Virus record (IMG/VR): IMGVR_UViG_3300011896_000001
Location: 1 to 52,991 of that record
DNA: 52,991 nucleotides
DNA from: a virus
Reading direction: 5' to 3' (one strand)
The notes under the pieces were generated by a model that searched no databases, was not told the origin of the DNA, and saw only the letters and a program-made list of their open reading frames with translations. This document shows positions 2,776-52,991 of the stretch, in pieces; positions within the stretch are counted from its first letter, which is position 1; every line of letters starts with the position of its first letter. Made by a program: the position numbers and the translations under genes.

Positions 2776-2955
2776 GATGCTTTCACGCATCGGAATATCC
2801 AGGAACCCATTTACTAGGTGGGGGATACCGTTAAATTCCTGAATATTCCGACAAGCGAAGGCTTGTCCTAAGAAAGACGTCTTGGCGATGACCTGCGATG
2901 TATTATGGTGCAGCTCCCCTGTTAAGGATCATGGCTCGCTCTCGCTATTTCTTCC
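2776..2955 (-). ncRNA. Structured ORF-free intercistronic RNA element in the early operon; identity unknown.
   Basis: Three adjacent helices are present. GATGC/GCATC is at 2776-2791. A 14-bp stem at 2791-2804 / 2837-2850 has its single non-Watson-Crick pair as G-U only on the minus strand. gacaagc-gaag-gcttgtc is at 2850-2867. The tract is GC-enriched and has stops in all frames. Confidence 0.45.
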
Positions 2956-3153
2956 CTACCTGCTAGCATGGACTAACCATGATAGCAACGCTCTTAGCTT
3001 AAAGGGCTTGTTTATAGTCGCTAAGACGACTTTTATTGATTTTGGCATGTACATCTTCATTGTTATCCACAGTTTTGCGAATGGATGATCACCAGGTTTC
3101 GTGAAGCAATATTCATTGTAGAATCCCGTATTCAATTTCCCTTTAAAAATCAT
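2956..3153 (-). CDS. Hypothetical protein, 65 aa.
   Basis: Track ORF. An AAAGGGG RBS lies 9 nt upstream of the ATG at 3153. The C-terminal part runs into the structured tract, so the real end is uncertain. Confidence 0.4.
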   Translation of the reverse strand: MIFKGKLNTGFYNEYCFTKPGDHPFAKLWITMKMYMPKSIKVVLATINKPFKLRALLSWLVHASR

Positions 3154-5531: not shown

Positions 5532-6683
5532 TCATAGTAAACCCAAGTAAAATTTAGGTAATTGCGAATAATGGATATTACCAGATTTTTGGCACATCAG
5601 CAAGGACTTTCGTAGTAGAGTTTCCCTCTCTTCTCCTTCGCATGTAAGAGCATAGTACGTCGTTTGGATATCTGTCCATCCTCCGTTTTTCTCTTTTAAA
5701 TCTAATAAAATCTTTTTAGCACCTAAAATATCACCTTCGAGTATCTTTGAATATGCATTTTCACTTGGATGTACAAATTCCAAGGTATCCAAATCTCTTT
5801 GATAATGAATTTTCAAGAAAGATAAGGTTTGTTGGACAAGTTTCCATTTCTTTTCTAACCCTTTGCAATTAGGTTTCCCCAATAATTCTAAGGTTTTCTC
5901 TAAATAAAACTTAGCGTTTTCGTAATTTTCAGGTTCGAATATTAATGACTCACCTATTTTCAAATATGCATTTAATTTTGGAAGTGAGAAAAAGCCATCC
6001 CACTCTAATTCATCTAATATATCTCGGCATATGGAACGAGATTCAACTACTTCTCCACCTTGTAAAGAAGTTACCGCCATTGCTTCCTTATATCTTAGTA
6101 ACAAACATTCTTTTATAAATTTATTTGTTGTGTCATTTATTTTTTCGTTAACTGACTTTAGTCTTTCATATAACGTTTTATAGTTTCCAGATTGATATTG
6201 CGCTTGACATAATAAGATCTCCGTCAAAACTTCCATTTCAATCGTTTTAACATTCTTATTCTTTTGTCTTAATAATTTGAAATAAGTTGAAGCATTCAAA
6301 CCTTCATGATATCTTCGAAAAATTATTTCGTATACTTCTGCAAATTCTCTATTTTCGGCAACATCAGAATGAGCCTCTTGATCTATAATCGCTTTCAATA
6401 ATTCGAATTTGCCTCTAATAGCTAAGTCTTCCATAGCTTCTCTTAAATTTTCAGGTTTGGGGTCTGTGTTCATTATATAGTCATTAACAACTTTCGCCTG
6501 TGAAATCAAACTCTTTTTTAATAAAATAAGCGTCTTCGAAAGATATCCGAAACTAATATCGTTAGCTCCTTTAAATACTTTGGTAACTGTAGCAGGCTTC
6601 ACTCCCCAATAATCAGCTAACTGCTTCTTCTTAAATCCAGCTACATATAATTCTCCTTCAAGATTGTTTAATACCTTCCACAC
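5532..6683 (-). CDS. RRNPP-family peptide receptor/regulator (HTH plus TPR-like repeats), AimR-like, 383 aa from the GTG start.
   Basis: The N-terminal FKKKQLADYWGVKPATVTKVF is an HTH. The rest is a long helical repeat body. The C-terminal QKSGNIHYSQLPKFYLGLL resembles the AimR tail KKSNDKFLIRLPLLEL. An AAAGGGAGG RBS lies 8 nt before the GTG at 6683; the ATG at 6782 has no RBS. Confidence 0.7.
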   Translation of the reverse strand: MWKVLNNLEGELYVAGFKKKQLADYWGVKPATVTKVFKGANDISFGYLSKTLILLKKSLISQAKVVNDYIMNTDPKPENLREAMEDLAIRGKFELLKAIIDQEAHSDVAENREFAEVYEIIFRRYHEGLNASTYFKLLRQKNKNVKTIEMEVLTEILLCQAQYQSGNYKTLYERLKSVNEKINDTTNKFIKECLLLRYKEAMAVTSLQGGEVVESRSICRDILDELEWDGFFSLPKLNAYLKIGESLIFEPENYENAKFYLEKTLELLGKPNCKGLEKKWKLVQQTLSFLKIHYQRDLDTLEFVHPSENAYSKILEGDILGAKKILLDLKEKNGGWTDIQTTYYALTCEGEERETLLRKSLLMCQKSGNIHYSQLPKFYLGLL

Positions 6684-6860
6684 TTCTTGTTCCTCCCTTT
6701 TGGAACAAAGACGCTTCGCTCTTTTTCTCAACTTTTTAAACAGGAAATTCATACCATAGTAATGCTTTAGTAATATCGGCATGTTATAATGTAAGTGTTA
6801 CTCGTGTAGTAACCGAAAAGAGACTTATGGCAGATGTTCCCCTCGTGAGTCGGGCGAACG

Positions 6861-8319: not shown

Positions 8320-8790
8320 ATGAAAGATGAATTAGTAAACATTAGAAGAGGTGGATGGTGTTGGTATGGTTCTTACACTTTTAAAGAAACAGATAATGTA
8401 GGTAAATTTATGACATTTGTAAAAGATGACATTTCAGATGAAATGCAAGAATTAATACTTAAAGCGATCAAACAAGGTGTCACTCCATTTATTAAACACA
8501 CCGATCCAGGCAGGCTTAAGCGTACAGGCATAATTAAGCCTTTTAATCCATATGCAAAAGACGGGACATTGGCAATTATTTGGTATTCTACTGATGAAGA
8601 AAAGGATTTAAAGAATTTAGCCAAATTTTTGATTGATAATGGATTAGTACCAAAAACTAAAGCTGGTAAATACTACAATATTTCATTTAAATATGACGAA
8701 CAAACTCGAAACGGTGAATATGGTGAACAATTTAAAGCCTCCATTTCTTTGAAAGATTTAATGGATTTAACTACCGGAGAATTTTATTAA
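8320..8790 (+). CDS. Hypothetical protein, 156 aa from MKDELVN; no family recognised.
   Basis: Track ORF 8299..8790. A GGAGG RBS lies 9 nt before the ATG at 8320. The stop TAA abuts the MITE-like element. Confidence 0.65.
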   Translation: MKDELVNIRRGGWCWYGSYTFKETDNVGKFMTFVKDDISDEMQELILKAIKQGVTPFIKHTDPGRLKRTGIIKPFNPYAKDGTLAIIWYSTDEEKDLKNLAKFLIDNGLVPKTKAGKYYNISFKYDEQTRNGEYGEQFKASISLKDLMDLTTGEFY

Positions 8791-9120
8791 AGGGGTCCCG
8801 CCAGCATTTCGGAAAAAAACCACGTTAAGGATTTTTTAGTTAATATTCCCCTGTTTTAAGGACAATACAAGGGAATAAAGAAGCATTTATGCTGTAAAGT
8901 GTAACGTATACTTTTGGAAAAGGTTTATAGTAATCATTTTGGTAATTACTTTTGGTAAAAGACTACCTCTTTGCTATCAAGAACCTTAACCAAGATTGAA
9001 TAAATTACAAAAATTATGGTTTTTGGTAACTAAAGTTTTTCTTAACGTTGTTAAAATTACTTATTTTTATGTTGAAATTTGCTTAACGTGGTTTTTTTCC
9101 GTTTCGCGGTCTGTACCCCT
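8791..9120. mobile_element. MITE-like non-autonomous element, 330 bp, with 39-bp imperfect terminal inverted repeats.
   Basis: The left end is aggggtcccgccagcatttcggaaaaaaaccacgttaag. The reverse complement of the right end is aggggtacagaccgcgaaacggaaaaaaaccacgttaag. 31 of 39 positions are identical, including a 20-bp perfect block. There is no ORF inside, and TAA is present on both flanks. Confidence 0.65.
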
Positions 9121-9163
9121 TAAATAATTATATACTCTTTTCTTTATACAATAGAAAACCCAC

Positions 9164-9847
9164 CTATTTCCGTAGGTGGGTTTCTTCAAATTCATCAGCA
9201 TCATGAAAGCCTAGATCAAACGAATATAGCGTTTCTAATGTCTCCGAAGCTCCGATATATTTCAAAATACTTTCAATATCTTTATATGATTGAAAATACA
9301 ACGTTTTTGCTTTTGGTATTTTACCATCAGTCTGTAACTTCTTCTTTTTAATCCCTAATTCCTCGAACATAAACTCATTTAAATGTTCCAAGATATCTGT
9401 AGATCCATGAATACGTAAGCGAGGTCTAACGTAAATTTTGTTGTTTTTTCGTTTCTCTTTCATTGTACCGAGATCGTGTCGCATTAAAATATAAGTTTTC
9501 ACGAATACTTCTTTATTAAACTCACCTTTAGGAAATGCTCTAGATTTTTCTTGTATCGGTGTCCAACCTAGTTCTTTAACTTTTCTGATAAACGGGTGAC
9601 TACTATTCATAGATGTGTACCATTCTACATACCCTTTATCTTCACGATATCTTGATTTTGTTTCTTTTCCAAAGAAATCAGCAAACCTCTTTACTATCGC
9701 TTGTGACTTATGAGTAAATTGAAAATAGCAATTCCCATACACATTTGTTTCATAACCATTTCGCCAAACCATACCTAAAGCCTCTGAAAATGCATCTGTT
9801 TTAATAAAATCATCTATCCAATTTTTTTCGATAAGATTATTAGCCAT
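9164..9847 (-). CDS. Hypothetical protein, 227 aa; possible degenerate double-motif LAGLIDADG-like fold.
   Basis: Two motif-like segments lie about 93 aa apart (EALGMVWRNGY and YILMRHDLGT). Each is followed by the strand / helix / ..FG or ..LGI pattern typical of that fold, but the acidic residues are not conserved. An AAGGGG RBS is present, and a terminator hairpin overlaps the stop. Confidence 0.6.
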   Translation of the reverse strand: MANNLIEKNWIDDFIKTDAFSEALGMVWRNGYETNVYGNCYFQFTHKSQAIVKRFADFFGKETKSRYREDKGYVEWYTSMNSSHPFIRKVKELGWTPIQEKSRAFPKGEFNKEVFVKTYILMRHDLGTMKEKRKNNKIYVRPRLRIHGSTDILEHLNEFMFEELGIKKKKLQTDGKIPKAKTLYFQSYKDIESILKYIGASETLETLYSFDLGFHDADEFEETHLRK

Positions 9848-10249
9848 AAAATATTCCCCTTAAATTTTATCCTTCTAATCAATTGTAAAATAAAACATTA
9901 TTTCTATAAACAAGCAATTAATCTTTTAAATTTCACGTACTATACCTGTTGTGTAAAACCTAATTCAGCAATAAGGCCTATTCTATCCTTCATCCCCTTA
10001 TCCTCTAACCAAGTAAGTAGTAAATCCTATATTTATTCCTCTATCTTAGTGAGTAGATCCCCCGGAAGTTAAACAATCTCATGTTTTTCATCTTTTCTTC
10101 GCAATTAAGCTTGACTGAAGATCTTGAAGGTTTGCATCATGTGGGAACGATTATGGAATACGGCTGGAAGGCAGATTTATCCCCTACTTTGAAAGATCAC
10201 AAAAAAAGTAATCGATCAAAATAGATGGATAAGCGTCTTGTTTTTGCCA

Positions 10250-10540
10250 TGCGGTCACTTATAAGGTATCCGTATGTATAGACCCTGTTCACTCAGCGAT
10301 TTTCACCGCATACATCCTTTTACTATGGCTTGTCCTTGTAATATCGTCCCTACACGACAAACTGAATGTACTCCCTAGCACCTTGATGCTAACGATAACC
10401 ACCGAACCTTTTAGAGAATCGTCCCTGGGTAAGTTCTCACCCGCCCTCACCAGAAGAACAGGATTCCGATGAGGGGTGCTGTTTTTGTAGGCGCATACTC
10501 TGTACCCCCTGCACGACCAACAGCTAGCCACGCACGTAAC
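10250..10540 (-). ncRNA. GC-enriched structured RNA candidate of about 290 nt; identity unknown.
   Basis: No credible ORF. The hairpin GCGGU-GAAA-AUCGC (10296-10309) pairs only on the minus strand. Further stems are CCCTCA/TGAGGG (10444-10475) and GGGUGA-GAAC-UUACCC (10427-10442). The minus-strand 5' end reads GUGCG. Confidence 0.4.
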
Positions 10541-10741
10541 ACGTTCCTCCTATATGTATAGCAGCACGGAATTACGGCTTATCAGTTTTTATTTACGTGG
10601 TATCAGGCAATTCCACGCGAACAAAAAACAAAAAGGCATCCCAAATTCCTAAATGGCCTGCGGATCCACAAGACTTCTAGGTTTAGAGATGCCCGCTATA
10701 TATCTTTTGACTACAAAAAATACAATTCTAGCATTTACTAG

Positions 10742-10770
10742 TTGAATTTTAGTCAAACAATAGATAAAAT
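10742..10770 (+). promoter_or_regulatory. Sigma-A-type promoter: TTGAAT-17-TAAAAT.
   Basis: -35 at 10742-10747, exact 17-nt spacer, -10 at 10765-10770. Confidence 0.6.
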
Positions 10771-10776
10771 GGGTAT

Positions 10777-11070
10777 ATCAAAGAAGCCTCGTGAAAAGGC
10801 ATAGTTGTTTAAGGATAGTGTTGGTGCACTACTTAAACGTAAATACTGTGGGTTAATACAGTTCGTTTCTAGCCAAGTGGTGGTACACTAGCTAGATAAG
10901 TCATTCCCGCTAAAGGTTGGTAGCCGTTAGCATATGGGAGTGGCTTTTTGTTTTGTGTTCATATTCAATTGTCTTGCTCAATCTATTTATGTAGATTTGA
11001 TTTATCAAAATATGTTTTGTTTTGTAGAATGTTGCTTGTTGTGTACTACGTTACAACAAGCTTTTTTGTT
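10777..11070 (+). ncRNA. Candidate non-coding transcript of about 290 nt, from the promoter at 10742 to a strong terminator at 11034-11070.
   Basis: The terminator is gcttgttgt-N10-acaacaagc followed by TTTTTTGTTTG, with a T-run only on the plus strand. Internal stems are TAGTG/CACTA, ACTGT/ACAGT and CTAGC/GCTAG. gttttgttttgt occurs twice. No ORF has an RBS. Confidence 0.5.
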
Positions 11071-11121
11071 TGTAAATGCCCCTATAAGTAGGTTTATACC
11101 ATCTAGTTAACTTAATTGAAG

Positions 11122-11238
11122 GATACAAAGATAGAAAGATACAAAGATACATTTATCCTTAGATACAAAGATACATAGTTTACCTTTGTGTATCTTTAGA
11201 TACAAAGATAAAAAGATAGAAAGATAAAAAGATACATA
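11122..11238. repeat. Phased 8-bp repeat array (GATA[C/G/A]AAA, about 12 units plus one inverted unit); candidate centromere (parS) or iterons.
   Basis: gatacaaa gatagaaa gatacaaa gatacatt tatcctta gatacaaa gatacata ... gatacaaa gataaaaa gatagaaa gataaaaa gatacata, read in register. Confidence 0.8.
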
Positions 11239-11317
11239 AATAAACGTTGATTTTACAAGGTTTTTGTTAAATGTCCTGTACACGTAAAATAGGGGCAATC
11301 TATTAAACATAAAAAAA

Positions 11318-11398
11318 GATACATTTATCCTTTTACTTTTCGTACAATCTCGTGTTATCATCAATTCGAGAATAAAAAGATACAAAGATACATTTATC
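11318..11398. repeat. Two further copies of GATACATTTATCC, with or without a GATACAAA unit, next to the parA promoter region.
   Basis: gatacatttatcc at 11318-11330 and 11386-11398; gatacaaa at 11378-11385. The same 13-mer also occurs at 11146-11158. Confidence 0.7.
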
Positions 11399-11440
11399 CT
11401 TTGTTACAATTATATTACAAATTTAAAAGGAGCGATTCCT

Positions 11441-12370
11441 GTGAAAAAAGGATACGTCATAATCAACGCCCAACAAAAAGGTGGAGTTGGAAAAACAACT
11501 GATTCGTGTATGGAATCTCTTGTAGCTTCTTTAATCTTTAATAAGAAAGTTTTATTTATTGATACTGACCTTCAAGGGAATGGTACATCATTTTTAGCGA
11601 AATCTTTTGATATTACTGAAATGCCTAAAACATTAATGAAATGTCTTGAAGATGGAAACTTATCAGAAGGAATTGTGCATCTGCATGAAAATCTTGATAT
11701 GATCCCATGCGGATATGATATGAGGAAGTACACTGATTTTCTAATTGAGAATTTCAACAATATTGAAGATAGAACTTTTTACCTTGCTAGATTGTTAGAA
11801 AAAATAAAATACAACTACGATTACATATTCATTGATATTCCGCCTTCAACAGATTTAAAAGTGGACAATGCTATGGTAGCTAGTGACTACATTATAGTAG
11901 TTCAAGAGACGCAACAATTTTCATATGAAGGAAGCCAACGTTTAATCTTTGAGTATATGCAGACATTAGTGGATGATTTCGGTTCGCTGGTAAAGCTACA
12001 AGTAGCTGGAGTACTTCCAGTATTACTTCAACAAAAACGTGCCCTACATAAAGAAATTGTAAAAAGTACTATCGCTACTTTTGGTGAAGAAAATGTATTT
12101 AGTACGATTATTAATAATCACGCCCGATTAGAATGGTATCCACGAATCGGACTACAATTTGAGGACCATCACGATAAAAGAATGTTAGCTTTATTCAGTG
12201 ATATTTTCTGTGAATTAGAAGAAAGAATTCATCTTTTTGAAACTGAAGGGGATATAGTTCCAGGCTACAAATACATACCTAAATACCTTGTCGATAATAA
12301 ACTTACTAAATTAGGAAAGGGGATTAACATAAGTGGCTTTAGTCAAAAGAGAACTGCCGAAAGATCCTAA
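11441..12370 (+). CDS. parA: ParA/Soj-family partition ATPase, 309 aa.
   Basis: Deviant Walker A NAQQKGGVGKTT. GTG start with an AAAGGAG RBS. Confidence 0.9.
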   Translation: MKKGYVIINAQQKGGVGKTTDSCMESLVASLIFNKKVLFIDTDLQGNGTSFLAKSFDITEMPKTLMKCLEDGNLSEGIVHLHENLDMIPCGYDMRKYTDFLIENFNNIEDRTFYLARLLEKIKYNYDYIFIDIPPSTDLKVDNAMVASDYIIVVQETQQFSYEGSQRLIFEYMQTLVDDFGSLVKLQVAGVLPVLLQQKRALHKEIVKSTIATFGEENVFSTIINNHARLEWYPRIGLQFEDHHDKRMLALFSDIFCELEERIHLFETEGDIVPGYKYIPKYLVDNKLTKLGKGINISGFSQKRTAERS

Positions 12371-12608
12371 TATAAATGATAAGGCTAATACTACAAGGAA
12401 TACTCAAGGAAAGAAAGTTTTAACAGCTCAAGATAGGAAAAACATTAAAGTTACACCTGAATCATTTAGTAAGATTAAAACCATTTGTACAATGAAGAGT
12501 ATGAAGAATTACGAATTTATTGATGAAATTTTAGAATTCTACATTGCTAATAATTTAACTGAGCGTGAGCAACGCATTTTAAAAAACATAACATCTAACA
12601 ATAAATAG
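12333..12608 (+). CDS. Small DNA-binding protein, probably RHH (ParG/omega-like centromere binder), 91 aa.
   Basis: KNIKVTPESFSKIKTICTMKSMKNYEFIDEILEFYIAN has a strand-helix-helix pattern after a basic unstructured N-terminus. GTG start with a GGAAAGGGG RBS. It overlaps the parA 3' end. Confidence 0.6.
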   Translation: MALVKRELPKDPNINDKANTTRNTQGKKVLTAQDRKNIKVTPESFSKIKTICTMKSMKNYEFIDEILEFYIANNLTEREQRILKNITSNNK

Positions 12609-12631
12609 CTTTAAGTGATTACTAAATAGGA

Positions 12632-12991
12632 GTGGTACCTTTGGAGAATAAAAGTAAATCTTTTGTAGTAACTGTTACACCTATTAATGAAAGTTCAGCT
12701 TTGAATACTCAAAGTGATCCAACTAACACGGAAAAAGAAATACTGACACCAGAGAAACCAGATCAACGTTTAGTTCCATCTAAAACCGCTAAAATTTCAC
12801 CAGCTGTTTTACTAAAGCTAAATACTCTTAAACCATTTATTCAGCAACAAGAGAGTATGGATAAAACATCAATTAACAACATCGTTGATATACTTGTTGA
12901 AAGCTACGTAGATACTCAACTGGTAAATCGACATTCTAAAGCGTATAAAGATATGTACAAACGTCTTTATGAAACACTAGAAAACAAATAA
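12632..12991 (+). CDS. Second small protein, paralogous to 12333..12608 in its C-terminal half, 119 aa.
   Basis: KTAKISPAVLLKLNTLKPF...SINNIVDILVESYVD aligns with IKVTPESFSKIKTI...NYEFIDEILEFYIA. The start is ambiguous: GTG at 12632 or TTG at 12641. Confidence 0.55.
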   Translation: MVPLENKSKSFVVTVTPINESSALNTQSDPTNTEKEILTPEKPDQRLVPSKTAKISPAVLLKLNTLKPFIQQQESMDKTSINNIVDILVESYVDTQLVNRHSKAYKDMYKRLYETLENK

Positions 12992-12996
12992 ACGAC

Positions 12997-13033
12997 AGAA
13001 GTGTCCTGGTTTTCAGGATGCTTCTTTTTTGTT
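12997..13033 (+). terminator. Intrinsic terminator of the par operon.
   Basis: agaag-tg-tcctg gtttt cagga-tg-cttct followed by TTTTTTGTTT. Confidence 0.8.
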
Positions 13034-13040
13034 TAGTATT

Positions 13041-13093
13041 ATGTATCTAAAGATAAATGTATCTTTTTATCCTTTTATCTTTGTATCTTTTTA
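13041..13093. repeat. Inverted-orientation copy of the 8-bp phased array.
   Basis: The reverse complement reads GATACAAA GATAAAAG GATAAAAA GATACATT TATCTTTA GATACAT. Together with the 11122 array it brackets the par operon. Confidence 0.75.
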
Positions 13094-13132
13094 TTTTAAG
13101 CAGGAAAACAAATACTCCTGCTTCGATTTCCC

Positions 13133-13723
13133 TCACCAGAACTTCCACCACGGCTTTTTCTTTTCTCTCACAGCAGCAACCTCATCACGAAACTCCTGCA
13201 TCATTCTCTTCGTTTCCTGCATCTCACGCAGCGTCTTCATCAGTGTCTCGTCCCTGGCTTCCAATCGTTTTTCCACACGTTCATTATGCGCTTCTACGCT
13301 CGCTTTAATTTCCTCGTTACTTTGCTTGGCCTGGTCACTTAATCGTTTCTCCATCGCTAACATACTCTGATTCATTTCTTGCGCCATAACGCTGTACTGT
13401 TCCTGTAGTTGCTGTTTAATATGGAATGGCACTAAGTCCGTTTCCTCAGCCTCTTCTTGAATCAGATCCGGATTAACTTTCTCTATTTGCTGCGCAATCA
13501 TCTTCGCTGCCTTTTCTAGCGTCATACCGTCATGCTTACTCAGTTCAATTAACTTCTCAATCACCATAATGTCATTGTCTGTGTATTGGCGTCTGCCACG
13601 ATTATCTTTCTTTACAGCGAATCCCTCACGCTGTAATACTTCCATGTACTTTCTAAGGGTGCTATCACTTATTCCTAGTCGTTTGTATACTTCACTAGCA
13701 GAATAAACAATTTCGTCCGTCAT
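13133..13723 (-). CDS. MerR-family HTH regulator with a long C-terminal coiled coil, 196 aa.
   Basis: YSASEVYKRLGISDSTLRKYMEVLQREGFAVKKDNRGRRQYTDNDIMVIEKLIEL is a canonical MerR N-domain. Confidence 0.85.
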   Translation of the reverse strand: MTDEIVYSASEVYKRLGISDSTLRKYMEVLQREGFAVKKDNRGRRQYTDNDIMVIEKLIELSKHDGMTLEKAAKMIAQQIEKVNPDLIQEEAEETDLVPFHIKQQLQEQYSVMAQEMNQSMLAMEKRLSDQAKQSNEEIKASVEAHNERVEKRLEARDETLMKTLREMQETKRMMQEFRDEVAAVREKKKPWWKFW

Positions 13724-52217: not shown

Positions 52218-52991
52218 TTATGCCGTTCTATAACTAACTCCCTTAACTTGGTACAAGTATTTCTTGCTCATTCCATACAAACGATCAGCTGCCGCAAATC
52301 CTATTTTGTCTTCCAATGTGTCTAAGTCTTCATTGCTTGTATACCAAATCGGTAAATTCCGTAAGTATCGTTCATTAATAATCTTGTAATACATATCCTC
52401 TTTGAACTCGCTGTACTTCGATTTTGCTATGTCATCCCACACAAGAATGTCACAAGTGCATAAGTCATGAAGTAATTCGTTTAATCGCTTTTTATTGTCA
52501 TTTAGGAACGCTGCATTTTGTATTTCAGCCATAATATTCACATCCTGAACACATAACACTCGTATCCCTCTTAAACGCCCTGTACGCTCATCTACGACCT
52601 TGAATTTATTCAAAGCGTATTTAGCTGCTGCTATTTGTAAATGAGTCTTACCTAATCCATACGAGTTGTTTTCCTGACGCATTTTGTTTCGTTCTCCTGG
52701 AGGCAAACTTTTTAATCTCGTTTCACCAACTGACGCAATAAAACCGATACTATTCATCTTTGAATCTCTAATTTCGTTAAAGACTTTCAAATACTCGATC
52801 ATAGCATCATATAAAACTTTCTGCACTTCTGCTTCTCTTATGTAGTTATCGAATCGTGCATTTTCAAACTCAGATGGAATCATTGCGTACTTGAAACGAG
52901 ATTTTAGACTTTTCCGTTCTAAGCATTCACATTCGATAGCAACATCAACATATTTTCCTTTTAGAAATTCAGATGGCTCTTTAATGAATGT
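52218..52991 (-). CDS. DnaC/DnaI (IstB-like AAA+) helicase loader. The 3' part is shown here; the ORF runs through the terminal duplication and its 5' end is at 108..257.
   Basis: Walker A is NSYGLGKTHL and Walker B is ILVWDDIAKS. My translation of 52884-52991 is stop-free in the same frame. Confidence 0.85.
   Translation of the reverse strand, partial: TFIKEPSEFLKGKYVDVAIECECLERKSLKSRFKYAMIPSEFENARFDNYIREAEVQKVLYDAMIEYLKVFNEIRDSKMNSIGFIASVGETRLKSLPPGERNKMRQENNSYGLGKTHLQIAAAKYALNKFKVVDERTGRLRGIRVLCVQDVNIMAEIQNAAFLNDNKKRLNELLHDLCTCDILVWDDIAKSKYSEFKEDMYYKIINERYLRNLPIWYTSNEDLDTLEDKIGFAAADRLYGMSKKYLYQVKGVSYRTA
52885..52991. repeat. Second copy of the terminal duplication, identical to 1-107.
   Basis: Exact 107/107 identity, read directly. 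Confidence 0.95.

What the first reader, a model, noticed from the sequence alone, without database searches (positions are those of the whole stretch)
9848..11100. 1.25-kb ORF-free zone next to the partition cassette: candidate RNA-based plasmid-prophage replicon or control region
No ORF with an RBS exists between the 227-aa gene and the repeat arrays upstream of parA. The zone holds a minus-strand structured tract at 10250-10540 and a complete plus-strand transcription unit at 10742-11070. It also holds a direct gttttgttttgt repeat at about 10945 and 11012, and AT-rich stretches. The phage has no integrase and must replicate as a plasmid in lysogens. An ORF-less segment directly abutting parS/parA is therefore the obvious place for a maintenance origin that relies on host factors or on an RNA primer or regulator.
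Basis: inference. Interest (0 to 1): 0.8.

Follow-up and report, generated by a model that had tools for sequence, protein, structure and literature searches.

The report
RNA-based, Rep-less plasmid replicon module
The gene-free 1.2 kb next to the phage's partition genes encodes a large folded RNA with its own antisense control, and it is a distant relative of the protein-free replication origin of Bacillus plasmid pLS20, so it is very probably what lets this phage persist as a plasmid.

Summary
The ORF-free zone is real. It is a conserved non-coding module at about 9927-11077, found at 88-97% identity in over 100 B. cereus-group plasmids and at least 80 IMG/VR phage contigs. A diverged form sits in 7-16 kb plasmids of Bacillus, Peribacillus and Planococcus.

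Comparison of 24 non-redundant copies shows:
- a minus-strand folded RNA domain (10160-10614): 97.7% of cells paired, 39 of 90 pairs with compensatory changes, 388 G-U against 15 A-C cells;
- an upstream hairpin plus U-run (10619-10695) that looks like an attenuator;
- a conserved plus-strand promoter P2 giving an antisense RNA of about 180 nt (10777-10956) against the leader of the long RNA;
- a second conserved opposing promoter, P1 (10111-10140).

No ORF is conserved, and the flanking genes differ between plasmids apart from a ParA cassette on one side.

A covariance model of the core hits the pLS20 origin (23-41 bits in 7 family members). The hit lies inside the published 1.2-kb rep-less replication module, which has the same layout.

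Best reading: this is the plasmid-state replicon of the phage-plasmid, RNA-based and controlled by a countertranscript. Replication activity and the RNA's exact role are untested.

The parts
9927..10110 (-). Left arm of the conserved block. It is conserved in the 50-90 kb plasmids only. It holds two ~20-nt direct repeats (10001-10020 and 10037-10056, TCCTCTAWC..AGTRAGTAG) that also recur in the small plasmids. The minus strand is G-rich and purine-rich. This is a candidate site for the RNA-DNA transition or origin (inferred).
   Evidence: Block limits. Repeat D5. Repeats in small plasmids. GC skew of -0.33 to -0.64. The polypurine test was weak.
10111..10140 (+). Promoter P1 (TTGACT-18-CATCAT; TATCAT in most homologs). 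It faces into the 3' end of the structured RNA. The role of its transcript is unresolved.
   Evidence: TTGACY, mostly with an 18-nt spacer, then YATCAT in 80 of 88 distinct copies. Also. pLS20 has an opposing TTGACT-18-CAGAAT at the equivalent place.
10160..10614 (-). Structured domain of the long non-coding RNA, about 455 nt (helices 2-15 of the consensus fold).
   Evidence: 97.7% of cells are paired. 39 pairs have double changes against 17.9 +/- 2.4 in shuffles. 388 G-U cells against 15 A-C cells.
10294..10477 (-). Core of the RNA (helices 5-11) used for covariance model R1. This is the part homologous to oripLS20.
   Evidence: R1 was built. The window scores 174 bits. pLS20-family origins score 22.8-40.6 bits.
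10619..10695 (-). Attenuator-like intrinsic terminator H0 on the minus strand: hairpin 10695->10635, then U-run 10634->10619.
   Evidence: Every homolog has a hairpin of -21 to -43 kcal/mol followed by a U-run, with a covarying stem. pLS20 has the same feature at 64957-65017.
10742..10770 (+). Promoter P2 (TTGAAT-17-TAAAAT) of the countertranscript.
   Evidence: Found in 83 of 88 copies.
10777..10956 (+). Predicted countertranscript of about 180 nt: stem-loops, then terminator hairpin 10900-10943 and T-run 10945-10956. It is fully antisense to the 5' leader of the long RNA.
   Evidence: Homologs are 100-196 nt, each with 2-5 hairpins plus a terminator. Conserved block 10897-10965. The pLS20 analogue is about 181 nt.
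10938..10962 (-). Leader segment of the long RNA that is complementary to the H0 3' arm and U-run (10617-10642). Candidate antiterminator. The countertranscript would sequester it.
   Evidence: Inverted repeat I1. Duplex energy -32.8 kcal/mol in the window. Cognate pairs average -24.0 against -21.7 for non-cognate pairs, permutation p = 0.0012; shuffled controls average -14.3.
10980..11008 (-). Candidate promoter P_L of the long RNA (TTGATA-17-TAGATT), with a start near 10973.
   Evidence: Clear in small plasmids as TTGATT/TTGCTT-17/18-TAAAAT. Recognisable in only 17 of 88 copies.
11034..11071 (+). Second plus-strand terminator, present in the large plasmids only. It probably insulates the par region from P2 read-through.
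11107..11414 (.). Repeat arrays (8-bp-phased GATACAAA units and AAGATACATTTATCC x3) upstream of parA. Centromere-like neighbour, not part of the RNA module.
   Evidence: Repeat families D1 and D2.
11441..12370 (+). ParA (PrgP-like) partition ATPase, divergent from the long RNA.
   Evidence: Pfam AAA_31, CbiA and ParA. A ParA homolog lies 1.1-1.4 kb from the anchor in 58 of 74 loci.

Best explanation
Window 9927-11077 is a protein-free plasmid replication and copy-control module of the pLS20 type, the 'class E theta' replicon that has no rep gene. It most likely serves as the lysogenic, plasmid-state replicon of this phage-plasmid and works together with the adjacent ParA cassette.

Anatomy (shown by comparison):
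- A long minus-strand non-coding RNA starts near 10973.
- It crosses a leader of about 280 nt and meets a strong hairpin plus U-run (H0, 10695->10619).
- If it reads through, it forms a heavily covarying structured domain of about 455 nt (10614->10160).
- It then continues into a G-rich arm with two direct repeats (10110->9927).
- A conserved plus-strand promoter, P2, makes a countertranscript of about 180 nt that is complementary to the leader.
- A second conserved promoter, P1, fires into the 3' end of the domain.

Mechanism (inferred): a 5' leader segment can pair with the 3' arm and U-run of H0, which would prevent termination. The countertranscript would sequester that segment, so H0 terminates. 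This sets the amount of full-length RNA, and hence initiation frequency, according to plasmid copy number. The logic is that of pT181 and pIP501 attenuation, but the regulated product is an RNA rather than a rep mRNA.

The full-length structured RNA would then act in cis with host proteins to open or prime the origin. The phage's DnaD-like and DnaC-like genes (136-936 and 52218-52883) would serve lytic replication.
For: Conservation and distribution. The block is 88-97% identical and unannotated in over 100 B. cereus-group plasmids. It occurs in at least 80 IMG/VR contigs of 16-87 kb. It occurs in 16 GTDB species on contigs of 7.5-68 kb.

Small plasmids. A diverged copy at 68-80% identity sits in 6.9-16 kb plasmids with no annotated Rep and no Rep-family Pfam domain, apart from a 164-aa HTH_36/DnaD_N protein found in 3 of 7. 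No protein family is shared by all 7 complete small plasmids. None of their families has a homolog in the window.

Flanking genes. Downstream ORFs are unrelated between loci. A ParA homolog at 35-92% identity lies 1.1-1.4 kb away in 58 of 74 loci.

RNA structure. Searches support the minus-strand fold.

Promoters, terminators, countertranscript and attenuator. All of these features are present in nearly all homologs examined; P_L is the exception, recognisable in only 17 of 88 copies. Leader-attenuator complementarity is better in cognate pairs, p = 0.0012.

Homology to a proven replicon. Covariance model R1 hits pLS20 at 65094-65337 with 37 bits, and it hits all 7 pLS20-family origins tested at 22.8-40.6 bits on the same strand and at the same place. 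There were no other hits at E <= 10 in 167 kb. That position lies inside bp 64501-65745, which holds all the information for autonomous replication, has no rep gene, and works by an unknown mechanism (PMC8557374; PMC4490491).

Shared layout. pLS20 has a divergent partition operon, an antisense promoter and terminators, a hairpin followed by UUUUUUGUUUG directly 5' of the core, and an opposing TTGACT promoter 3' of it.
Against: No experiment shows that this fragment replicates or that any of the three RNAs exists.

P_L is clearly recognisable in only 17 of 88 copies.

Homology to oripLS20 is visible only to the covariance model, not to BLASTN or nhmmer. The model's E-values are rough, and the 7 pLS20-family hits are not independent of each other.

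The DnaA boxes proposed for oripLS20 are absent here at up to 1 mismatch.

Some carriers have other possible initiators: RepA_N-like genes next to the element in 14-28 kb plasmids, and the DnaD-like gene in this window. The element therefore need not be the only replicon.

Six of the 7 small plasmids share three uncharacterised proteins, any of which could be an unrecognised Rep.

The cognate against non-cognate test is confounded by relatedness among the sequences. The polypurine or R-loop signal is weak.
Confidence: 0.65

Rival explanations
1. The long structured RNA is a plasmid- or phage-borne non-coding RNA with a function other than replication, for example incompatibility or exclusion, anti-defence, or an RNA toxin-antitoxin-like stability function. 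On this view it is merely co-inherited with par, and replication is carried out by proteins not yet recognised.
For: Large structured RNAs of unknown function are common on mobile elements. The small plasmids do carry conserved uncharacterised proteins (families A, B and C in 6 of 7). Some carriers have RepA_N-like or DnaD-like genes. There is no Rfam family to guide assignment.
Against: No protein is common to all carriers. The homologous tract in pLS20 lies inside the fragment that is sufficient for autonomous replication and has no rep gene. Countertranscript-plus-attenuator control is typical of copy-number circuits. No small ORF is conserved that could be a type I toxin.
Confidence: 0.15
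2. The module is an elaborate 5' regulatory leader, a riboregulator with antisense control, for whatever gene lies downstream on the minus strand. Here that is the 227-aa gene at 9164-9847.
For: In most large plasmids a minus-strand ORF starts 210-300 nt beyond P1. No terminator was seen between 10160 and the end of the 227-aa gene, so read-through expression is plausible.
Against: The downstream ORFs are unrelated from one locus to the next, at 64-460 aa. The block ends at 9927, before them. A conserved 455-nt fold preceding unrelated genes points to a function of the RNA itself. In the pLS20 family the gene on that side is the rap regulator (annotated as a tetratricopeptide repeat protein in four records) or an unrelated hypothetical protein.
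Confidence: 0.1
3. The folded minus strand acts as DNA: a single-strand origin (sso) that primes lagging-strand synthesis after rolling-circle replication or conjugative or FtsK-mediated transfer.
For: The structure is strand-specific. It is a non-coding element shared by unrelated small and large Firmicute plasmids. The window carries an FtsK/Replic_Relax pair.
Against: None of the small carriers has a rolling-circle Rep domain or a relaxase. 18% of paired cells are G-U, which suits RNA rather than DNA. At about 455 nt with 13 helices it is much larger than known sso elements. It is embedded in conserved promoters, terminators and an antisense unit. The CS-6 motif TAGCGW occurs on the folded strand in only 3 of 24 copies and not in the window.
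Confidence: 0.04

Closest known systems
oripLS20, the replication module of Bacillus subtilis plasmid pLS20 (class E theta replicon; Meijer et al. 1995; Val-Calvo et al. 2021, PMC8557374)
   Same: Both are non-coding regions of about 1.1-1.25 kb with no rep gene, lying directly next to and divergent from the partition operon. Both have a GC-rich tract whose core matches covariance model R1 (37 bits). In both, that tract is preceded by a long hairpin plus U-run. Both have an upstream antisense promoter with terminators that would give an RNA of about 180 nt, and an opposing TTGACT promoter 3' of the core.
   Different: There is no BLASTN or nhmmer similarity. pLS20 carries large insertions in the core (47 and about 90 nt). 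It has a consensus DnaA box, which this element lacks at up to 1 mismatch. The partition system is Alp7AR rather than ParA. The hosts are the B. subtilis group and conjugative plasmids, rather than B. cereus-group phage-plasmids and small cryptic plasmids. The published description of oripLS20 (as read) mentions no RNA.
pHT1030 / ori1030 replicon of B. thuringiensis, the basis of the pHT304/315/370 and pBS0E vectors (Lereclus & Arantes 1992)
   Same: From memory of the 1992 paper: a minimal replicon of about 1 kb with no ORF, from a B. thuringiensis plasmid of about 15 kb, with an adjacent stability locus (spbA) and spontaneous copy-number mutants. This fits a B. cereus-group non-coding, RNA-controlled replicon. 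It also fits the small DNA-binding gene found next to the element in the small plasmids.
   Different: Identity could not be tested. Neither the paper nor any ori1030 sequence is held. This remains a lead only.
Countertranscript-driven transcriptional attenuation of pT181, pIP501 and pAMbeta1
   Same: An antisense RNA is complementary to the leader. An intrinsic terminator lies just downstream of the target. An upstream leader segment can pair with the terminator's 3' arm.
   Different: Here the regulated transcript carries no rep ORF; it is a structured non-coding RNA. No Rfam countertranscript family matches.
ColE1-type RNA II / RNA I replicons
   Same: No plasmid Rep is involved. There is a long folded RNA, and a short antisense RNA against its 5' part that controls copy number.
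   Different: Control appears to work by attenuation rather than by blocking hybrid formation. pLS20 minireplicons replicate in a polA5 host, so Pol I-dependent extension of an RNase H-cut primer is unlikely. There is no similarity to Rfam RNAI. A second opposing promoter, P1, has no ColE1 counterpart.

Membership tests
oripLS20-type (class E theta) rep-less replication module | A region of about 1.1-1.25 kb without a replication-initiator gene | tested here: met
   The longest closed ORF ranges from 35 to 99 codons across 88 copies and is not conserved. Flanking ORFs are unrelated between loci.
oripLS20-type (class E theta) rep-less replication module | Sequence or structure similarity to oripLS20 (bp 64501-65745) | tested here: met
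   BLASTN and nhmmer found nothing. Covariance model R1 scored 37 bits at 65094-65337 and 22.8-40.6 bits in all 7 family origins, with no other hit at E <= 10 in 167 kb.
oripLS20-type (class E theta) rep-less replication module | Lies directly beside the partition module | tested here: met
   ParA lies 1.1-1.4 kb from the anchor in 58 of 74 loci. In pLS20, alp7A ends at 64463 and the origin starts at 64501.
oripLS20-type (class E theta) rep-less replication module | Consensus DnaA box(es) within the module | tested here: not met
   No TTATCCACA at up to 1 mismatch in 9848-11100. Only 2-mismatch TTATCC-type sites were seen.
oripLS20-type (class E theta) rep-less replication module | The fragment alone supports autonomous theta replication, independent of polA and recA | not testable with these tools
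   Requires cloning and host genetics.
pHT1030 / ori1030 replicon | Sequence identity to the 1-kb minimal replicon of pHT1030 | not testable with these tools
   No sequence or paper is held.
pT181/pIP501-type countertranscript attenuation | Antisense RNA against the leader, plus a terminator downstream, plus alternative antiterminator pairing | tested here: met
   P2 RNA and H0 are present in all homologs. The leader/H0 duplex favours cognate pairs, p = 0.0012. All of these are predictions from sequence.
pT181/pIP501-type countertranscript attenuation | The attenuated transcript is the rep mRNA | tested here: not met
   No conserved ORF lies downstream.
ColE1-type RNA-primed replicon | Match to the RNAI/RNAII families; primer matured by RNase H and extended by Pol I | tested here: not met
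   No Rfam hit at E <= 1. The related pLS20 replicates in polA5. Enzymology is not testable here.
Single-strand origin (ssoA/ssoT/ssoU) | Associated rolling-circle Rep or relaxase; CS-6 (TAGCGW) loop on the folded strand | tested here: not met
   No RCR Rep or relaxase in the small carriers. TAGCGW is present in 3 of 24 copies and absent from the window.

The most novel reading that the evidence does not exclude
The covarying RNA of about 455 nt is itself the replication initiator. It would be an RNA counterpart of a Rep protein that, in cis and with host factors only, opens or primes the origin. Its supply would be metered by countertranscript-driven attenuation. This would define one ancient, widespread class of protein-free replicons across Bacillaceae: the pLS20 conjugative plasmids, probably pHT1030 and the pHT vectors, the ~7.5-kb cryptic plasmids, and a large family of B. 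cereus-group phage-plasmids. It would also explain the 30-year-old unknown mechanism of 'class E' theta replication.
Probability: 0.4. Interest if true: 0.9.

Novelty: new variant of a known kind. Interest (0 to 1): 0.74.

Why it matters
Rep-less Gram-positive replicons have been known since the 1990s: pLS20, and by my recollection pHT1030, which underlies widely used Bacillus vectors. Their mechanism is still called unknown in the 2021 paper (PMC8557374), and no RNA family for them exists in Rfam.

This analysis gives four things:
1. A concrete, testable RNA architecture for the class: a long folded RNA, a countertranscript, an attenuator and an opposing promoter.
2. An extension of the pLS20-type module beyond the B. 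subtilis group, to which BLASTN had confined it. It now reaches B. cereus-group phage-plasmids, small cryptic plasmids, Peribacillus and Planococcus.
3. Identification of the missing plasmid-mode replicon of a large family of arbitrium-carrying phage-plasmids, whose published annotations list only protein replication genes (PMC8026635).
4. Predictions for incompatibility groups, copy-number engineering of vectors, and replicon typing of plasmids that currently type as having no replicon.

Tried and rejected
Rfam. There were no hits at E <= 1 in 8500-13500. In oripLS20 only three chance-level matches appeared, each 20-46 bits below its family's gathering score. There were no tRNA or tmRNA genes.

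A conserved rep gene downstream. Rejected: the ORFs are unrelated between loci.

Homing endonuclease or group I intron. This idea arose from a weak LAGLIDADG_WhiA hit in the 227-aa protein. It was dropped because the protein is a variable cargo gene of unknown function (phrog_6640).

sso. Rejected (see rivals).

DnaA-box origin. There are no boxes at up to 1 mismatch. The invariant TTATCC motifs at 10178 and 10236 form the two arms of RNA helix 13.

Polypurine or R-loop tract downstream of P1. The best 25-nt windows hold 17-23 purines against a background of 19 +/- 2.1, and their positions are not conserved. Inconclusive.

GC-skew origin mapping. Almost the whole window has negative skew because the genes lie on the minus strand. 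The only positive windows, 7.5-9.5 kb and 10.5-12.5 kb, bracket the element. This is confounded by gene orientation.

Finding the ori1030 or pHT1030 sequence, or any description of it. The paper is not held, supplements contain no sequence, and full-text searches with conserved 11-14-mers gave only chance hits.

A name such as SpbA for the small-plasmid family A protein. All 95 homologs are 'hypothetical'.

BLASTN and nhmmer against pLS20. Both were negative. Only the covariance model detected the relationship.
Full report
**Setting.** The window is a B. cereus-group phage-plasmid. It carries:
- an arbitrium receptor AimR (5532-6782);
- an antirepressor;
- ERF;
- a DnaD/DnaB_2-type initiator (136-936) and a DnaC-like loader (52218-52883);
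- terminase, tail and lysis genes;
- an FtsK/Replic_Relax pair;
- a ParA cassette at 11441-12991.

No integrase was found among the 40 ORFs scanned.

**Observation.** Between the 227-aa gene (9164-9847, minus strand) and parA, only short unconserved ORFs exist. GC content rises to 0.45-0.55 at 10350-10600 within AT-rich surroundings. Rfam finds nothing at E <= 1.

**Conservation.** The zone is not junk. Positions 9927-11077 are 88-97% identical in over 100 plasmids of 45-260 kb from the B. cereus group, and they are unannotated nearly everywhere. The same pattern occurs in at least 80 IMG/VR contigs of 16-87 kb and on plasmid-sized contigs of 16 GTDB species (one further hit, L028, is chance).

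A diverged copy at 68-80% identity, covering 10110-10640 and 10897-10965, sits in plasmids of 6.9-16 kb from Bacillus, Peribacillus and Planococcus, and in phage C30-2.

**What else is shared.** Nothing consistent.
- The minus-strand ORFs to the left differ from locus to locus.
- Seven complete small plasmids have no protein family in common.
- Their recurrent proteins are an HTH+RHH protein, a 93-aa HTH protein, a protein of about 210 aa, and a resolvase. These have no Rep-type Pfam domains and no homolog in the window.
- Homologs of the HTH+RHH protein are almost all on contigs of 7.2-7.9 kb, which reveals a large family of cryptic plasmids.
- To the right of the element, a ParA homolog follows at 1.1-1.4 kb in 58 of 74 loci, although its identity falls as low as 35%.

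**RNA structure.** I aligned 24 non-redundant copies in minus-strand orientation (A1).
- RNAalifold gives -78.9 kcal/mol with 90 pairs, 38 of which show compensatory changes. The plus strand gives only -29 to -35.
- On the named structure, 97.7% of cells pair.
- 39 pairs have double changes, against 17.9 +/- 2.4 in 500 shuffles (0 of 500 reach the observed value) and at most 14 when partners are slid.
- There are 388 G-U cells against 15 A-C cells. The folded strand is therefore the minus strand, and it is most likely RNA.
- The domain spans 10614->10160 (helix map).

**Transcription signals.** These are conserved by position while the sequence drifts.
- P1 (TTGACT-18-TATCAT; 10111-10140, plus strand) is present in 80 of 88 distinct copies.
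- P2 (TTGAWW-17-TAAAAT; 10742-10770, plus strand) is present in 83 of 88.
- Every homolog encodes a P2 RNA of 100-196 nt, made of 2-5 hairpins plus a long terminator hairpin and a U-run.
- Every homolog also has, on the minus strand just upstream of the structured domain, a hairpin of -21 to -43 kcal/mol followed by a U-run. This is H0, at 10695->10619 in the window.
- A minus-strand promoter lies just beyond the P2 terminator. It is clear in the small plasmids (TTGATT/TTGCTT-17/18-TAAAAT) and in the window (TTGATA-17-TAGATT, 11008->10980), but recognisable in only 17 of 88 copies.

It follows that the P2 RNA is antisense to the first ~200 nt of a long minus-strand RNA.

**Attenuation model.** The tail of the P2 terminator and the tail of H0 are inverted repeats of each other (I1). 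In the long RNA, the 5' segment 10962->10938 can therefore pair with the 3' arm and U-run of H0, at -32.8 kcal/mol in the window. Across 17 representatives:
- cognate pairs average -24.0 kcal/mol;
- non-cognate pairs average -21.7 kcal/mol (permutation p = 0.0012);
- shuffled controls average -14.3 kcal/mol.

This is the design of countertranscript-driven attenuation. The result is inferred from sequence, and the test is partly confounded by relatedness among the sequences.

**Link to a proven replicon.** From memory, two Gram-positive replicons are reported to need no plasmid protein: pHT1030 and pLS20.

I could not obtain any pHT1030 or ori1030 sequence.

For pLS20, BLASTN and nhmmer found nothing. 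A covariance model of the core (R1, from A3) did find a match:
- It hit pLS20 at 65094-65337 with 37 bits over the full model. Nothing else scored at E <= 10 in 167 kb. With filters off, the score was 25.2 bits and the next best hit scored 6.9.
- All seven pLS20-family origins tested (75-100% identical to one another) are hit at the same place and on the same strand, at 22.8-40.6 bits.
- The shared motifs are an ACC-hairpin with a UCCU loop, GGYGAGRAC, AAMGGUYCGG, helix 8, and a terminal GAAA-loop hairpin.

[quoted passage not shown] They describe it as about 1.1 kb, without a typical replication gene, and with an unknown mechanism (PMC8557374). A review records replication of pLS20 minireplicons in polA5 and recA4 hosts (PMC4490491).

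The layouts also match:
- alp7A ends at 64463 and is divergent from the origin.
- An antisense promoter, TTGACG-17-TAAAAT, with two terminators predicts an RNA of about 181 nt.
- A -31.7 kcal/mol hairpin plus UUUUUUGUUUGU sits about 80 nt upstream (5') of the core.
- An opposing TTGACT-18-CAGAAT promoter sits 3' of the core.

**Interpretation.** The zone is best read as a pLS20-type, rep-less replication and copy-control module built around a regulated structured RNA. It would serve as the plasmid-state replicon of the prophage, while the DnaD-like and DnaC-like genes serve lytic growth.

What is shown: conservation, RNA structure, conserved signals, and homology plus shared layout with oripLS20.

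What is inferred: that the RNAs are made, that attenuation occurs, that the RNA initiates replication, and where DNA synthesis starts.

What is unresolved: the role of P1, the start of the long RNA in most large plasmids, and the function of the two direct repeats at 10001-10056.

Differences from pLS20: no DnaA box at up to 1 mismatch, ParA instead of Alp7, and large indels in the core.

**Rivals.** Three alternative readings are each less consistent with the data:
- a non-replicative RNA;
- a leader for cargo genes;
- an sso.

**Novelty.** The replicon class is known, but its RNA content, its regulatory design and this distant clade appear undescribed in the sources I could read. I therefore rate it a new variant of a known kind.

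Noticed in passing
window 2954-3031 (minus): Full-length Pistol ribozyme (RF02679, 59.3 bits against a gathering score of 34.5). It lies between the ERF gene and the Bro-N/ANT antirepressor gene and is the only Rfam family in the window.
   Followed up: no
window 9164-9847 (minus) and the equivalent position in L007, L012-L032: Immediately beyond the conserved block, at 210-300 nt past P1, each plasmid carries a different minus-strand gene of 64-460 aa. Here it is a 227-aa protein of phrog_6640, function unknown. This looks like a cargo or 'moron' hotspot that could be expressed by read-through of the long RNA.
   Followed up: partly
L001, L006, L031, L034-L037 (small plasmids) and proteins P0001-P0095: A widespread family of cryptic plasmids of about 7.2-7.9 kb occurs in the B. 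cereus group, Peribacillus, Metabacillus, Priestia and Exiguobacterium. Directly next to the element, they carry a 165-200-aa protein with a conserved N-terminal domain that looks like an HTH, a low-complexity linker, and a C-terminal RHH-like domain. All copies are annotated as hypothetical. It may be a stability or centromere-binding protein.
   Followed up: partly
L004 6972-8240, L016 3966-5051: The phage-like plasmids of 14-28 kb (pBAslCI14, pLM5; pLM14 also carries the element, but that flank was not fetched) carry a gene of 361-422 aa upstream of the element and in the same orientation as the long RNA. PGAP annotates one copy as replication initiator protein A. The two proteins are 32% identical to each other and are absent from the window.
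   Followed up: partly
window 11107-11414: There are dense 8-bp-phased repeats (GATACAAA/GATAGAAA) and three copies of AAGATACATTTATCC upstream of a PrgP-like ParA. The 20 Enterococcus plasmid matches to the wider query were not seen with the core alone, so they must lie outside 10200-10720, perhaps in this par region.
   Followed up: no
window 13133-13723 (minus): A MerR_1 + DUF3967 protein (phrog_3470) lies just beyond the par operon. MerR-family genes also sit near the element in the 14-kb plasmids and in the Planococcus plasmid. The link, if any, is unknown.
   Followed up: no
window 10786-10800 (minus): The complement of the first stem-loop of the P2 RNA is followed by a U-rich run. The scan flags it as a minus-strand terminator-like site inside the leader of the long RNA. 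It could be an additional pause or termination point.
   Followed up: no
L119 15160-15170 (pLS20 record about 65165): The consensus DnaA box of oripLS20 (TGTGGATAA) lies in a 47-nt insertion inside the region aligned to the RNA core, not in a flanking AT-rich stretch.
   Followed up: no
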